Assembly: GCA_024137785.1 (NCBI GenBank) | Contig: JAHRHZ010000066.1 | Span: forward strand, 1,410,491-1,474,490 | Origin: Ginglymostoma cirratum | Taxonomy: Eukaryota | Direction of reading: 5' to 3' | Length of the DNA stretch: 64,000 nucleotides | Part shown: positions 18,001 through 39,000 of the stretch, piece by piece | How the letters are laid out: each line of letters starts with the position of its first letter | Position numbering within the stretch: the first letter of the stretch is position 1 | Position numbers: made by a program

Positions 18001-21000
18001 AAAATCTATTACGGTTCAAAACTAAAGTCAAATCTTTAATAGCTTCTGCAGTTTTCCAAATCGAAGTGATTGCATGATCTGATAATTGAGTCCTAGCAAA
18101 AGTGAATGAATGGCTCACTGTGTCATGGTGGGAGATAGCTTATGTACTGTTTCACCTCCACATTCAGCTGTGGGATTGTGGTGATCCACCAGGTGAAAGG
18201 ATGAGTTCCATGCAGTCAGGCAGTAGTTACTGTGGGGCTGAAGAATAAAGCTCTTGGAGGCTTCAGCTGGGGTTGGGGACTGCTGCAAGGTGTGGGCAAT
18301 GAGCAAGCAAAAGGGAGGCTTTTCATGTTTGTGTTTTTGTGTGCTCGGAGTGTCTGGACACCTTGTCAACCCTTTACTTTCTGTTTCAGGGTGATGTGGT
18401 CAACAGCATTGAGCAGAACGTCACCAATGCAGCGGATTATGTCGAACAGGCAAAGGACAGCACAAAAAAAGCAGTTAACTTTCAGGGTACAAGCAGACGG
18501 GTAAGTGGCTGAAGAGAACACACTCTGAGAAGATCTGTTATTGTCATGTGTCTCTGCTCTTTTCCTTGATGCCCAGGGAGAGATGATAGACAGGATCGAA
18601 TACAACGTTGAGCACTCAGTTGACTACGTAGAGAGGGCAGTGTCCGACACGAAAAAGGCGGTTAAGTACCAGAGTAAAGCACGACGGGTAAGTAGTGCAA
18701 GTATCTCCATCTCAGCATGTGGCATGGTCAACTCCATTTGTGAACCGTGCTTTTCCCAATCCCATCACAAGAGACCACAGTAAAACAATGTTTCTCAAGC
18801 CTTGTGTTCACATGATTGACCTGCAGACTATATCCATCCCCAGATACCCTGCAGCCTGTATCAGCTGCCAGTCTGCAATTCCCTGAACTTTTCTCCTGAG
18901 TTAAGGACACTGCCCCTCAATCTGTCTGGGTTTATTATCGATGGTGTATGTTCTGCATAAAATGTCACTGGACCGTTTACTCCTGAGGCTGAGGTTCAGA
19001 GGACATGAGTTCAAACCAATCCAGAGCAGCTAATGGAATTTAAATTCATTTAGTAAAAGAAAATCTGGAATTGAAAGCTAGTGTTTGTAATAATGACCAT
19101 GTAACTAGCATTGGTTTTTATAAAAACCATCTACAAGTATCTTCAAGGGAAGGAAATCTGCCATCTTCACCTGGTGTCACCTACATGTGATTCCAGTCCC
19201 ACAGTTACGTGGTCTATCCTTAACTGCTGTCAAGGCGACAGAGGGATGAGGGACAAATGTGGCCTTGCAAAAAAATATAAAACAAAACTGGAGCTCTTGG
19301 CCCGTTGACACAATATGCTGTAGTAGAATATACACACGGGAGTGTTAGACTCAGTGAGTATATTTTGAAATATACATAGCACACCACAACTCAGTGGTGC
19401 AACCTTAAAACTAACCTTAATTTCTACCAATTTCTCCCCCTCCCTGATATTATTATGTTAGGGTGATACCATTGTTAAGTAATGTCTATATGTCACCACA
19501 GTGTAGTAGCAGGGAACAATTACGTCACTTTGCTAGAAACAGATCTTGGTGAGCTGAGAGTTATCTGAAGACTCAAGCACACATTTTTATTGAATGATGG
19601 TGAACACTTGACATGGCTCACCAGCTATTCAGAAAACTGTCTTGTAATGTATGCCCAGGCTTTCAATGGTATATCTGCAAAGACCAATCATACTTTTTAA
19701 CATGCACCAGGGAACCAAAAATATCAGGTAAGAATGTTAACAGATAGAAGACAAAGCCCATGTCCATGGAATCATGACAGAGAAACATTTGCTTTGCTGA
19801 CACTTATTGCATTCTGTGGTTTTTCCATTCCTTTTACCTATGCTTGGAGCCTCTGTGAAGCATTTCTCCCAAAAACTCTTGGATTGCTATCCCTTTCATG
19901 CACACTTTACCACACAAACCAGCTGGTAGTTAGCATTCCAATGCAACATCCATTACTCATGGTGAGCACTGTTGTGGCATCCTTGCAGAAAGTACCAGCT
20001 GTATTTGCAGTGGTGGTTAGTAGTATATTAGAGGCAAGGCTTCTGCATGTGGTGACTTGAACAACATTGAGTGAAATTACAGATAGTTGAACTAGGAAAG
20101 TAGCCGTACTAGACCTCGTACTGGGGAATGAGCCTGGCCAGGTGACGGAAGTTGCAGTGGGCAGCATTTTCTGGAACAGTGATCATAATTCTGTAAGGTT
20201 TAACATAGTTATGGATAAAGATAAGACTGGTCCTCAGGTGAAAGTTCTAAACTGGCTGAAGGCTAATTACAACAGTATTAGGCAGGAACTGGAGAAATTA
20301 GATTGGGGCAGCTGTTTGAGGATAAATCCACGTCTGACATATGGGAGCCCTTTAAAGGGCCAGTTAATCAGAGTTTAGGACCAGTATGTTTCTATGAGGA
20401 TGAAAGATAAAGATGGCAAGATTCAGGAACTCTGAATGACAAGAGCTATTGAAAGTCTCCTCAAAAAGAAAAAGGAAGTGCATGTCAAGTTTAGGAAACT
20501 GAAATTAGACAAAGCCATTGAAGAATACAGAGGAAGCAGGAAAGAATTTAAACAAGAAATTAGGAGGGTTAAAGTGGCCATGCAATGTCCTTGGCAAGTG
20601 GGATTAAGGAGAATCTCTAGGCATTTTATACATATATTAGGAGCAAGAGAGTAACCAGGAAAAGGGCAGGTTCAATCAAGGACAAAGGAGGGAATTTATG
20701 CATGGAGCCAAAGAAAGTGGGTGAGGTGTTTATTGAATATTTCACATCGATATTCACCAAGGAGGAGGACATGGATGATGCTAAGATTAGGGGTATGTTG
20801 GTATTCTCGGGCAGGTCGAGATTAGGAAGGAGGAGTTGTTGTGTGATTTGAAAACCATTAAGGTAGGGCCTGATGGGATCAAATCCAAGATACTTAGGGA
20901 GGCAAAGGAGAAGATTATTGGTGACTTGACAGAAATCTTTGTATCCTGTTTAGCCACAGGCGAGGCCTCAATAAACTGGAAGATAGCCAATGTTATTTCT

Positions 21001-36000: not shown

Positions 36001-39000
36001 CTGTCACTTTATCTTCATCCATTTATGAAGAACTGGCTCAGTGTTTTTCCTTGATTGTATATTTTATGGCTGCTTCGCTATTGTTTGATAAAATATAACA
36101 TTTCAAAAACATTTTTCATGGAACTTGTTTACAGCACGTGCAGGTGGTGAACAGTCACACACTCTGTGGGAAACAGTTGAATATTTCTTATAGACCAGTA
36201 CTAAACTCCACAGCAACAATTCTATAGGCATCGAGGCTAAAGGGAAATCAGGTTTGAAAGGTGGGCCACAATTTTAGGGGAAATGTGGGCAAACTGAATA
36301 TTGTTTTTCATGATACCGTGTAGTGCCTGATGATGAAGATCGTATTGAAGGAGAACAACACACACTCACACCACATAATGCACACTCAGCAAATAGAACA
36401 TGTACAGCACATACCTCTTGAGTAGTATTATGGTAAGATACTAATGATGCAAAATTGAGCTCAGTTAAGCCATGAATGCCAGCGTCCTAATTTTCAAACT
36501 AACTTCAAGTTTTCCAAATCTATAAAATATTCAGGCCTAGCCAGTATATCAGTCAGCAACCAGTTAATAAAAGTCAAAGCTTTACAAAAACAATGCATTG
36601 AGTTCTAAACTGAAAAGGTACAAACTGGACAAACTCTTTACTTTGCCCTTTATTTCATGTAAGTGTTAATATGAAGAGTTTGTAAAGAGTGGGATTTTCA
36701 TGTCAGATGTTCATTAAGGTGAGACATTCTAGTATAGGGTGCAGAAGGGGGAAGGGTCTTTGAAGTGAGTCAGTTTCTACTGGAAGCAGTTGGGTAATCT
36801 ACAATGTATATGGCATTTGGAATATGATGGTTTGACGTTTGTAGTGGGTTGGTAATATGACGCTTTTAATGAGAGGCTGTGCAGTAGGGGTGGTTCATAA
36901 CAGAGGGGTACTTATGTTGTGAGATAAATTTGTAACATTGGAAGGTTGTTAATATTGGAGGTGTTTGTAATGTGTTTGAAAGGGTTGGTACATTTCATAA
37001 AGCCAGTTTATTAATGTAAAGGGAAGATTTTAATCTCTGTTGGAATTGTTCATCTTCCATTCTGTAAAGATCCTGTTCATTAATTGTAAAATAAAATCAC
37101 CAGAACTAACTATTTCTCCTCTTCTTCCTGTCATGCTGCTTGGATGTGGGGCCTGCAGAAGAAGATTATGATCATTATATGCTGTGTGGTGCTGGGGGTC
37201 GTCATCGCCTCCACAGTTGGGGGAATATTTGGATTTTGAAAAACACAAAATAGGAGAGAATCTACCAATGTGATGTGGGCAGTTCAGCCACTTTGTGAGA
37301 ATGAAGTGACTTTCACTCAGTAACACTGAGAAAGGTTTCTCTGCATGACTATCTAGCATTACTTCCTTTACTGGTCCTGCTCTTTCTGGCTGTTAAGGTA
37401 TGGTAACATTTATTTTTTTTCTTTAATTTCTTTTTCAATGATGCGCTGTTTGCCATAAACACATGAAAATTTGGCCCTGGAAAAAAAAACTCTTCACATT
37501 TAAAGGGATTGATCTTAACCCAATGATTGCCAAAGCCAAAGAAAGCCCACTTAACACCAACAAACACAGCGGCTGGAGTCAACATTTTATAAGACACTGA
37601 TCACAAAAAGGCAATATCTTTTTTAGAAACTCAAATTAGTGTGCACAAGTTTTCAAATCTTGCCAAGGTTGGAAGAATGCAGTGATCCGACATCTCATCA
37701 ACATAATGGTAACCCACTGGACCAGTCTGAAGACCATGATCCCAACAACCTGTATTGTGGAAATTCTTATCTTCATAACATTTCCATAGATGGAGGCGTG
37801 ATCTGGTCTGAAAATGTTCTGCTTTAAGTGTAAAACTTGATGTTTGTTACTGTGGGCGAGGACCTGCCAGACTGTCTTTGAAGCCTCTCTTCTGATCTCA
37901 GCCTTATTCCTTAGCTAATTACAGTAATTTTTCATTCACTGTCATTTCTTCATGTGACGAAGAATCACTGATGAAGATTCTCTCAAGTGGTGCTATCGCT
38001 GCCTGTGATGTTAGAGAAAAGGCTGACAAGATCTGAAGAGTATCTTTAAAGGATTCAGCTTTTTAAACAAAAAAAAGTGAAATGAGAATGGAACAATTCA
38101 AATAAGTTGTCATCAATATATTTTATGTACTCTGCTCTGGTAAAAACAAAATCAGGAGCTGGGCCGGTGAACCAATAACAGTTCTACCAGTCAAAAAATA
38201 AGTTATTTCGGCTTACTCCAAGTGGAAGCGGAACCTTTGGAAAATATACACTTCACATCCATCTCTAATTTTATATAAGGTGCCCTCAGTAAGGAGCAGT
38301 TTCCATTTCCTATTTAACCTATGACCTAAACAGAGAAGAAGCTCTCATTTAAAATCCATAAAGGGCTTGTATTAGGAGATCTGCACCTTGTCTTTAGTTT
38401 TACATTCAGAATTCTAATTTGTTTTAATCCCATGTGACGTGAAGCTTTTATTCTGGCTGTTTTACAAATATTACCCACTTGTCTAGTTTTACCAAGAATA
38501 CACTGGTCCTTACCAGACGCCAGCATTGCCATTGTGCAGTCCTGGGCAGCTAGGTATCCAAGGGCTTTAAAGAGCAGTTAGTCAAGACTTGCCACTCTGC
38601 ACTTGGGTATGGCAGCTCCTTTGGGTTGTTGAGGTGATGTCAGTCTGTATGTGATGCAGCAAGTTCTGTTGCCAAATTTCTTCCAGTCTTAGTAAAAGTA
38701 CATTTTATTTATGCAATTTATGTATGGAAAAGAAGTAACCAGATTTTTAAAATTCCAGCTTTTTGTTGTCTATTCCAGCAGTGGTGATGCAAGAAGGCTT
38801 CCTACGCAGGGCGCTGACATGGTGCCATGAACCAATTCACTAAAAGCCCCTGATCAGTTATGTGTACTTTACAGTTTTTATGTTTTAAAGTTCCAGTTAC
38901 AGCTATCCAGTTCAATCAATTTCAGTTGCATTACCTCAAACCTCAGTATTTTGCACATTTGAGCTATTTCAAACTCTGCACTTTTTTTCTATGTTTTTAC

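What the first reader, a model, noticed from the sequence alone, without database searches (positions are those of the whole stretch)
18390..37239. STX1A with two pairs of duplicated alternative exons: one gene encoding both a synaptic STX1-type and an STX2-type C-terminus
Seen: after the exon ending at the 0-layer Gln there are two homologous 111-nt SNARE exons (18390-18500, 18577-18687). Further on are two separate phase-0 KK-initiated transmembrane last exons (30000-30077, 37159-37239). All have canonical splice sites and open frames, allowing up to four C-termini. Established: mammalian STX3 makes 3A/3B by swapping this SNARE half and the TM exon, and STX2 has alternative TM exons; mammalian STX1A is known to me with a single exon of each type (plus the truncated STX1C). 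Inference: the vertebrate ancestral plasma-membrane syntaxin carried both exon sets, paralogues lost them differentially, and this lineage's STX1A keeps the dual cassette as a neuronal/non-neuronal switch. I cannot check whether automated annotations already list these isoforms.
Basis: partly seen in the sequence, partly recalled or inferred. Interest (0 to 1): 0.92.

Follow-up and report, generated by a model that had tools for sequence, protein, structure and literature searches.

The report
Shark syntaxin-1A alternative C-terminal exons
A shark syntaxin-1A gene carries a second, conserved copy of the exons for the last half of its fusion helix and for its membrane anchor, much as mammalian syntaxin-3 does; fish genome annotations already list such isoforms, so it is real but not new to the databases.

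Summary
After the exon ending at the 0-layer Gln (14558) lie two 111-nt phase-0 exons, 9A at 18390-18500 and 9B at 18577-18687. Both have AG/GT sites and both match Pfam SNARE. Further on are two KK-initiated transmembrane last exons, 10A at 30000-30077 and 10B at 37159-37239.

The window is shark-like, not human: 9A is 36/37 identical to a Carcharodon carcharias "syntaxin-1A-like" protein.

The cassette is not peculiar to this lineage. In one search, 37 of 120 listed proteins (30 fish species: sharks, a ray, sturgeons, bowfin, teleosts, coelacanth) are STX1A models with a 9A-type block. Nine join it directly to a 10A-type anchor, including RefSeq isoforms. No tetrapod model in that list has it.

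9B is nearly invariant from shark to bird. 9A evolves fast but keeps its heptad layers.

Exon trees place 9B with a syntaxin-3B-type exon and a mite syntaxin-1A, and 9A with STX2- and 3A-type exons. This favours an ancestral cassette, but a duplication inside STX1A is not rejected (p-AU 0.066).

9A changes the surface residues, and 9A/10A the juxtamembrane and cysteine residues, that published experiments tie to release clamping. No transcript data were available, and six literature searches found no description.

The parts
10628..10701 (+). STX1A exon 7 (…[24 protein letters not shown])
   Evidence: tblastn of the Carcharodon, Narcine, Latimeria and Acipenser proteins. AG at 10626-10627 and GT at 10702 were read. 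Exons 1-6 are not in the window.
14421..14558 (+). STX1A exon 8, N-terminal half of the SNARE motif, ending at the 0-layer Gln
   Evidence: It is 46/46 identical to the Carcharodon protein P0001.
18390..18500 (+). [quoted passage not shown]
   Evidence: AG/GT, 37 codons. Pfam SNARE 33 bits. 36/37 to Carcharodon, 30/37 to Scyliorhinus torazame and Narcine.
18501..18576 (+). 76-nt intron between 9A and 9B
   Evidence: Its shortness is the basis of the inferred steric bar to joining 9A to 9B.
18577..18687 (+). Exon 9B: canonical synaptic STX1A C-terminal SNARE half (B-type)
   Evidence: AG/GT, 37 codons. 36/37 to PDB Syntaxin-1A. Pfam SNARE 55 bits. Identical in shark, sturgeon, bowfin, eel, pufferfish and a bird.
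30000..30077 (+). Exon 10A: alternative last exon, KK + transmembrane anchor + TAA
   Evidence: 23/25 to Scyliorhinus torazame, 21/25 to Narcine, 11-16/25 to the teleost 10A-type anchors that were in register. Strong 3' splice site, 16/18 pyrimidines.
32847..33071 (+). Cluster of AATAAA/ATTAAA hexamers, candidate poly(A) signals for the 10A transcript
   Evidence: Hexamer count only. Not otherwise tested.
37159..37239 (+). Exon 10B: canonical STX1A last exon, KK + CC-containing anchor + TGA
   Evidence: 22-24/26 to frog, lizard and bird STX1A anchors. Weak 3' splice-site tract, 9/18 pyrimidines.

Best explanation
The window holds the 3' half of a shark STX1A gene. Exons 9 and 10 each exist in two versions, a cassette shared by cartilaginous fishes, ray-finned fishes and the coelacanth.

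Splicing 8>9B>10B gives the canonical synaptic syntaxin-1A. Splicing 8>9A>10A gives an isoform with the same N-terminal part and the same hydrophobic SNARE layers. That isoform has a different helix surface, one basic juxtamembrane residue fewer, and an anchor with one cysteine instead of the CC pair.

By analogy with STX3A/3B and with published STX1A/STX2 chimeras, I infer that 9A/10A is a less clamped, non-synaptic or tonic secretory form.

I also infer three splicing points:
- The 76-nt intron between 9A and 9B disfavours joining the two.
- 10A is used as an alternative last exon with its own polyadenylation.
- The weak 3' splice site of 10B makes the synaptic anchor the regulated choice.

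The A/B exon pair most likely predates the split of STX1A from STX3 (my estimate about 0.6). The B type is the old bilaterian syntaxin-1 type.

Shown: the exons, their conservation, the layer constraint, and their presence in annotated isoforms.
Inferred: actual splicing in this species, mutual exclusion, tissue use, physiology, and the date of the duplication.
For: Anatomy.

Both exon 9 copies are SNARE-domain matches. 9B and 10B are canonical STX1A.

Conservation. The 9A query hit one protein, Carcharodon 'syntaxin-1A-like', at 97%. The search with exon 8 + 9A of that protein gave 1888 hits, of which 120 were listed. 37 of those 120 are STX1A models with an A-type block, from 30 fish species. 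Of the 37:
- 9 are A-block + 10A-type anchor;
- 2 are A-block + 10B;
- 3 are A-block without an anchor;
- 23 carry A and B blocks in tandem, always A first.

Constraint. Among 27 distinct 9A-type blocks, the eight heptad-layer positions have mean entropy 0.57 against 1.45 for the other 29 positions. Only 238 of 100,000 random 8-position sets are as low.

Age. 9A and 9B share 67/111 nucleotides; 10A and 10B share 42 of 78.

Phylogeny of 33 exon blocks over 37 columns:
- 9B + STX3B-type + mite syntaxin-1A form a group, support 88/94.
- 9A + STX3A-type + STX2 lie on one side of a branch, support 78/89.
- Forcing 9A+9B together costs 17.9 lnL.
- Identities: 9B-3B 25/37, 9A-3A 19, 9A-9B 18, 3A-3B 16.

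Function, from papers:
- Exchanging the C-terminal SNARE half of STX1A for that of STX2 lowers the primed pool and unclamps spontaneous release. D231N/R232N, Y235R, E238V, V248K and S249E were the tested surface changes (PMC10957171, abstract and sections 10 and 16). 9A has N231, S232, Q235, T238, K248 and D249.
- A basic residue at 260 is needed for palmitoylation of C271/C272, which promotes spontaneous fusion (PMC9183232, passages). 9A has T at 260, and 10A has C271 but I272.
- The window's 9A keeps Thr at the +7 layer, the 'regulated' state (PMC1808484, passages).
Against: - No transcript evidence could be reached, so use of 9A and 10A in this species is inferred from other species' gene models. 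Their RNA support I could not see.
- 23 of the 37 models contain both A and B blocks in tandem. Some are RefSeq isoforms (Acipenser ruthenus X4, Periophthalmus X3, Eucyclogobius X4). Either these are prediction artefacts or the exons are not strictly exclusive.
- A 76-nt intron is short but above the roughly 65-nt threshold quoted for human short introns (PMC4463651, abstract in the listing). The steric argument is therefore weak.
- The Carcharodon model joins 9A to read-through intron, not to 10A.
- The AU test does not reject a duplication inside STX1A (p 0.066). It also does not reject 3A+3B as a clade (p 0.32).
- The paralogue panel is one sequence each. The labels STX3-like (P0038) and STX4-like (P0122) are mine. 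For P0038 the label rests partly on the EARR juxtamembrane motif described for STX3B; the rest is recalled.
- STX2 is as close to 9B (25/37) as to 9A (24/37).
Confidence: 0.8

Rival explanations
1. Duplication inside STX1A. Exons 9 and 10 were duplicated in tandem within STX1A in an early jawed vertebrate, after STX1A had separated from STX2 and STX3. The likeness of 9A to STX2/3A-type exons, and of 9B to the 3B type, would then be convergence under similar functional demands.
For: The AU test does not reject holding all STX1A 9A and 9B blocks together (p 0.066), nor 3A+3B together (p 0.32). There are only 37 columns and one sequence per paralogue. 9A-type exons evolve fast, so their placement is fragile.
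Against: The constrained tree is 17.9 lnL worse. 9B-3B identity (25/37) exceeds both within-gene values (18 and 16). The B group also holds a mite syntaxin-1A, so the B type is older than vertebrates. The A-then-B order and the 37-codon boundaries are the same in the STX3-like tandem model P0038.
Confidence: 0.25
2. 9A and 10A are decaying relics or gene-prediction artefacts: sequence that looks like exons but is no longer spliced into functional mRNA in this shark.
For: No transcript data were seen. Many database models are ab initio and simply chain every open exon-like block (23 tandem models). The only close hit to the 9A search itself, the Carcharodon protein, ends in read-through.
Against: Frames are open and AG/GT sites intact. 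Both 3' splice-site tracts are strong, 16/18 pyrimidines. 9A is 30-36/37 and 10A 21-23/25 identical among a lamniform-like shark, a catshark and an electric ray. Heptad layers are selectively conserved across 27 distinct versions. Nine models use the A block alone with the 10A anchor.
Confidence: 0.04
3. Capture from a paralogue. The 3' end of an STX2- or STX4-like gene was copied into STX1A introns by segmental duplication or gene conversion.
For: 9A shares a 10-residue run (NVTNAADYVE) with the caecilian STX2. Of the three proteins returned for the Latimeria 9A+10A region, the one named hit other than Latimeria itself was an STX4-like goby protein, 56% identity over 70% of the query; an unnamed hit scored the same and was not used.
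Against: Two separate insertions 11 kb apart would be needed, each landing in phase next to its counterpart. 10A is only 4/25 to the STX2 anchor and 9/25 (counted by eye) to the STX4-like anchor. The arrangement is shared by sharks, ray-finned fishes and the coelacanth, so any capture would be as old as jawed vertebrates.
Confidence: 0.05

Closest known systems
Syntaxin-3 splice forms 3A and 3B
   Same: [quoted passage not shown] In the tandem STX3-like model P0038, the 3A-type block precedes the 3B-type block, each 37 residues starting right after the 0-layer Gln, as 9A precedes 9B here. 9B groups with the 3B-type block.
   Different: The host gene here is STX1A, known in mammals (recalled) with a single exon of each kind. 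The A-type exons of the two genes are only 19/37 identical. No STX3 anchor was available for comparison.
Syntaxin-2, and the engineered STX1A-2(Cter) chimera
   Same: 9A carries non-STX1A residues at all six surface positions that were mutated towards STX2. N231 and K248 are identical to the STX2-directed changes, and D249 is acidic like E249 (PMC10957171 section 10). The 9A isoform is a natural counterpart of that chimera.
   Different: Overall identity of STX2 to 9A (24/37) is no higher than to 9B (25/37). The 10A anchor does not resemble the one named STX2 anchor (4/25). STX2's own alternative anchors (recalled) could not be fetched.
SNAP-25a/b, mutually exclusive duplicated exon 5
   Same: It is a partner SNARE in which an ancient tandem exon duplication yields two mutually exclusive variants of part of the SNARE region (PMC2581893, abstract seen in the listing).
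   Different: SNAP-25 has one exon pair, not two. Exclusivity there is documented; here it is only inferred.
Mutually exclusive exons enforced by branch-point or intron-size limits (alpha-tropomyosin, OGDH 4a/4b)
   Same: A very short intervening intron (76 nt) lies between the two alternative exons. PMC7969005 (abstract in the listing; reference list) describes enforcement by branch points close to the 5' splice site.
   Different: No branch point was mapped here. Several database models include both exons.

Membership tests
Syntaxin-1A gene (plasma-membrane Qa SNARE) | SNARE domain present | tested here: met
   Pfam PF05739: 9A 33 bits, 9B 55 bits, cut-off 26.8.
Syntaxin-1A gene (plasma-membrane Qa SNARE) | C-terminal SNARE half and anchor match characterised syntaxin-1A | tested here: met
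   9B is 36/37 to PDB Syntaxin-1A chains at residues 227-263. 10B is 22-24/26 to frog, lizard and bird STX1A.
Syntaxin-1A gene (plasma-membrane Qa SNARE) | Orthology to STX1A rather than STX1B, STX2 or STX3 over the shared exons | tested here: inconclusive
   Exons 7 and 8 are near-identical to proteins that sources name syntaxin-1A(-like). No named, verified STX1B was available. The motif-based assignment to 1A is recalled.
Syntaxin-1A gene (plasma-membrane Qa SNARE) | N-terminal peptide and Habc domain | not testable with these tools
   Exons 1-6 lie outside the window.
STX3-type alternative exon 9/10 cassette | Two versions of the exon for SNARE layers +1 to +8 and two versions of the anchor exon, downstream of shared exons | tested here: met
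   The STX3 arrangement is from PMC11476516.
STX3-type alternative exon 9/10 cassette | Exon-by-exon homology: A with 3A, B with 3B | tested here: inconclusive
   The tree favours it (88/94 and 78/89), but the AU test gives p 0.066 for the alternative, with one STX3-like sequence.
STX3-type alternative exon 9/10 cassette | Mutually exclusive, coordinated use in mRNA | not testable with these tools
   Only gene models were available: 9 A+10A, 2 A+10B, 66 B+10B, none B+10A, 23 with both blocks.
STX3-type alternative exon 9/10 cassette | Tissue-specific expression of the two forms | not testable with these tools
   No expression data in reach.
   9A-STX2 24/37 against 9A-9B 18/37, with one STX2 (Rhinatrema). 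However, 9B-STX2 is 25/37.
   10A is 4/25 to the Rhinatrema STX2 anchor. Other STX2 anchor variants were not available.

The most novel reading that the evidence does not exclude
The single plasma-membrane syntaxin of the vertebrate ancestor already carried a two-position switch. One setting was an old bilaterian 'synaptic' exon 9/10 set (B). The other was a 'general secretory' set (A).

After the genome duplications, STX3 kept both sets. STX1A kept both for more than 400 million years in all fish-grade jawed vertebrates and lost the A set on the way to tetrapods. STX2 and STX1B each kept one SNARE half.

Fish STX1A-9A/10A would then be a natural, selected version of the laboratory STX1A/STX2 chimeras. 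It would retune release clamping and anchor palmitoylation within one gene.
Probability: 0.45. Interest if true: 0.6.

Novelty: new member of a known kind. Interest (0 to 1): 0.45.

Why it matters
Syntaxin-1A is the textbook synaptic t-SNARE and is treated as a one-product gene apart from truncated forms.

A conserved second C-terminus in sharks, ray-finned fishes and the coelacanth has three consequences:
1. Zebrafish and other fish models of STX1A have an isoform layer that knock-outs and antibodies may confound.
2. The exon 9/10 switch known from STX3 is probably a family trait, not an STX3 invention.
3. Evolution has already made the C-terminal-half and juxtamembrane/anchor swaps that recent electrophysiology used to dissect priming stability and spontaneous-release clamping.

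The third point offers natural sequences to test those models. The finding is of moderate weight because the isoforms already sit in public annotation and the principle is known from STX3.

Tried and rejected
I re-sent it as contiguous window DNA 18381-18500.
The 8 members of the Carcharodon cluster and the 67 of the Tachysurus cluster therefore stayed unseen.
- my last homologue search (Latimeria 9A+10A region) returned only 3 of 8 candidates, so it gave no panel of named STX2/STX3/STX1B proteins. This is the main weakness of the exon tree.
- a profile of 8 named proteins against 1.84 billion representatives gave 10,676 hits at E<=0.001, with 150 listed. 146 of these carry no name or species and some could be human, so I neither fetched nor analysed them.
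- the Atlas search on the Latimeria C-terminus returned only generic 'SNARE domain-containing protein' clusters.
- Pfam found nothing in three long non-syntaxin ORFs.
- PDB holds no STX2/3/4 SNARE-half chain that matched at E<=10.
- The window's exons were searched one by one. Whole-isoform comparisons used database proteins as returned.
- 10A and 10B (25-26 aa) were too short for the database searches and were compared only locally.
- I take the window for shark, not human. No human sequence was fetched or compared, so whether mammalian STX1A loci keep relics of 9A/10A stayed unchecked.
- Supplementary files of the papers were not opened.
- Literature: six searches touched on STX1A splicing, exon duplication or syntaxin evolution, plus on syntaxin paralogue evolution. 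None listed a paper describing a 9A/10A-type STX1A isoform. This covers only open-access PMC and bioRxiv.

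
Full report
**1. What is in the sequence**

- Exon 8 (14421-14558) ends on the whole codon for Gln in ...MLVESQ.
- Exon 9A (18390-18500) and exon 9B (18577-18687) are each 111 nt, flanked AG/GT and open in one frame only. 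They encode 37 residues that begin with Gly and end with Arg-Arg.
- Exon 10A (30000-30077) and exon 10B (37159-37239) each follow an AG. Each starts Lys-Lys in phase 0, runs through a hydrophobic stretch and ends in a stop.
- Exon 7 lies at 10628-10701. Exons 1-6 are outside the window.
- The window has no N and is 40.5% G+C.

**2. More than chance**

- Each exon 9 copy alone passes the Pfam SNARE gathering score: 33 and 55 bits against 26.8.
- 9B is 36/37 identical to PDB Syntaxin-1A chains at residues 227-263, which puts the exon 8/9 boundary right after residue 226. 9A aligns to the same residues with E about 2e-6.
- I scanned about 49 kb of the + strand for AG-preceded short ORFs with a basic start, a hydrophobic run and a stop. 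It returned 10A, 10B (listed twice, from 37159 and 37162) and one poor candidate at 41096.
- tblastn with four database syntaxins found no further SNARE-half exon.
- 9A and 9B share 67 of 111 nucleotides, and 10A and 10B share 42 of 78, so the duplicates are old.

**3. Whose genome, and how the searches were run**

The 9A query was extended by nine contiguous intron bases to reach the tool's 40-aa minimum. It hit a single protein, 'syntaxin-1A-like [Carcharodon carcharias]', at 97% identity. Exon 8 is identical to that protein. I therefore take the window for a shark, not for human.

No human sequence was fetched or compared. The window's exons were searched one at a time. I left out the step of joining them into a spliced protein. 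Whole isoforms were compared only as database proteins.

**4. Spread of the cassette**

I searched with exon 8 + 9A of the Carcharodon protein. This gave 1888 hits, of which the best 120 were listed. I parsed all 120.

- 40 carry an A-type block. Three of these are not STX1A: a mite protein, an STX3-like model and a caecilian STX2.
- The remaining 37 are STX1A-type models from 30 species by the sources' names: 3 cartilaginous fishes, 26 ray-finned fishes (sturgeons, bowfin, eels, tarpons, bony-tongues, catfishes, cyprinids, a characiform, salmonids, percomorphs) and the coelacanth.
- 9 of the 37 join an A block directly to a 10A-type anchor. These include Narcine bancroftii isoform X4, Huso/Acipenser isoform X2, Latimeria isoform X1, Megalops cyprinoides X3, and Tachysurus fulvidraco X2 (a cluster of 67 member sequences). 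One of the nine, Anguilla rostrata X8, has a hybrid A/B block.
- 2 join A to a 10B anchor (Salvelinus X1, Scleropages).
- 3 have A and no anchor.
- 23 contain A followed by B in tandem. These are mostly ab initio models, but some are RefSeq isoforms.
- The other 80 listed proteins have only the B block: 66 with the 10B anchor and none with 10A. They include every bird, reptile, frog and marsupial model in the list.

So automated annotation already lists these isoforms, and the cassette is a general trait of fish-grade jawed vertebrates.

One caveat applies. A divergent tetrapod A-type isoform could score no better than a canonical protein and so fall below the 120 shown.

**5. Constraint**

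- 9B is invariant or differs at one residue from shark to bird.
- 9A evolves fast. The window's copy is 36/37 to Carcharodon, 30/37 to Scyliorhinus torazame and Narcine, 22/37 to Latimeria and sturgeon, and 15-21/37 to teleosts.
- The change is not random. Among 27 distinct A-type blocks, the eight heptad-layer positions (4, 7, 11, 14, 18, 21, 25, 28 of the exon) have mean entropy 0.57, against 1.45 for the rest. Only 238 of 100,000 random sets of eight positions are as low.
- The layer register follows from the 3-4 spacing counted from the 0-layer Gln. It agrees with the +7 layer Thr251 named in PMC1808484 (passages).
- The 10A-type anchor is 23/25 and 21/25 identical in the catshark and the ray, and 11-16/25 in the teleosts that were in register. 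It is 8/25 to 10B.

**6. Origin**

Identities over 37 residues:

| Pair | Identical |
|---|---|
| 9B - STX3B-type | 25 |
| 9B - mite syntaxin-1A | 25 |
| 9B - STX2 | 25 |
| 9A - STX2 | 24 |
| 9A - STX3A-type | 19 |
| 9A - 9B | 18 |
| 3A - 3B | 16 |
| 9A - 3B | 15 |

A maximum-likelihood tree of 33 blocks (23 distinct, 37 columns, LG+G4) gave the following:
- 9B, the 3B-type block and the mite syntaxin-1A form one group (88/94, not starred).
- All 9A blocks lie on one side of a branch (69/81).
- 9A + STX3A-type + STX2 lie on one side (78/89).

Forcing all STX1A exons into one clade costs 17.9 log-likelihood units, but p-AU is 0.066. Forcing 3A+3B together gives p 0.32.

The ancestral-cassette model is the better fit, but the data (37 columns, one sequence per paralogue) cannot exclude a duplication inside STX1A.

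The labels 'STX3-like' for the Goodea model and 'STX4-like' for the goby protein are mine. The first is backed by its EARR juxtamembrane motif, which the review gives as the STX3B state. The second is recalled.

**7. How it probably works**

Published work maps function onto exactly these two exons.
[quoted passage not shown] The tested surface differences were D231N, R232N, Y235R, E238V, V248K and S249E. D231N/R232N reproduced the pool loss (PMC10957171, abstract and sections 10 and 16). The window's 9A reads N231, S232, Q235, T238, K248 and D249, while keeping every layer residue.
- A basic residue at 260 is required for palmitoylation of C271/C272 in the anchor, and loss of palmitoylation suppresses spontaneous fusion (PMC9183232, abstract and passages). 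9A has Thr at 260, and 10A has Cys271 but Ile272.

The switch therefore touches both mechanisms those authors separate. I infer that 8>9A>10A yields a less clamped, non-synaptic or tonic secretory syntaxin-1A and that 8>9B>10B yields the synaptic one. Tissue use is untested.

**8. Splicing logic (inferred)**

- The 9A-9B intron is 76 nt, and both exons have CGG|gtaagt donors.
- Any plausible branch point lies less than about 50 nt from the 9A donor. By analogy with alpha-tropomyosin (recalled; cited in the reference list of PMC7969005), this would hinder joining 9A to 9B.
- Against this, 76 nt exceeds the roughly 65-nt threshold quoted for human short introns (PMC4463651 abstract), and 23 models include both exons.
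- 10A has a strong acceptor (16/18 pyrimidines) and is followed 2.8-3.0 kb downstream by a cluster of poly(A) hexamers. 10B has a weak acceptor (9/18). This suggests that 10A is the default last exon and 10B the regulated one.

**9. Known or new**

The principle is known from STX3A/3B, and the isoforms sit in public annotation. Six literature searches on STX1A splicing, exon duplication or syntaxin evolution, and one more on syntaxin paralogue evolution, listed no paper describing them. These covered open-access PMC and bioRxiv only, and supplements were not opened. I file it as a new member of a known kind.

**10. Limits**

- I saw no transcripts and no genomic DNA from other vertebrates.
- Cluster members could not be listed.
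- My last named-protein search gave almost nothing.
- The 146 unnamed representatives from the profile search were left unused.

Noticed in passing
window 50218-51204 (+) and 30956-31366 (-): A 328-aa open frame and a 136-aa open frame on the opposite strand are 42% identical over 130 residues (E 3e-26). This is a dispersed repeat that I recall as the C-terminal tail of a LINE-type retrotransposon ORF. One copy sits 0.9 kb downstream of exon 10A. Pfam found nothing in either.
   Followed up: partly
window 18501-18512, just after exon 9A: The Carcharodon model P0001 ends with 9A read through into the intron (…SRRVSGRRE). In the window the same read-through stops after three codons (VSG*). If that transcript exists, it would give an anchorless soluble syntaxin-1A.
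   Followed up: partly
window 37139-37158 versus 29980-29999: The acceptor of the canonical anchor exon 10B is weak (9/18 pyrimidines, with a pyrimidine run displaced upstream). The acceptor of 10A is strong (16/18).
   Followed up: no
proteins P0019, P0026, P0030, P0034, P0036, P0041, P0048 (percomorph STX1A models): Their 9A-type blocks have Ile or Val instead of Thr at the +7 layer, and a Pro at the next position (…KE[ST][IV]P[KQ]CKKFKK…). This is the 'constitutive' +7 state described in PMC1808484, together with a likely helix break near the membrane.
   Followed up: partly
proteins P0016 (Anabarilius) and P0020 (Labeo): In these cyprinid models the otherwise invariant 9B block is strongly diverged, while the 9A-type block looks ordinary. 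This may be a gene copy specialising on the A form.
   Followed up: no
protein P0039 (Anguilla rostrata isoform X8): Its single exon-9 block is A-type for the first 26 residues and B-type for the last 11, and it is joined to a 10A-type anchor. It is either a modelling artefact or a hybrid exon.
   Followed up: no
protein P0004 (Blomia tropicalis, mite, 431 aa): This model fuses a complete syntaxin-1A carrying a B-type signature (…EAVKDTKKA…) to part of a second syntaxin carrying an A-type signature (…KAKEQTKQA…). Both signatures therefore exist in an arthropod, apparently in neighbouring genes.
   Followed up: no
window 1872-2363 (+): A 163-aa open frame with no Pfam match and no similarity to the repeat at 50.2 kb. 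Its nature is unknown.
   Followed up: partly
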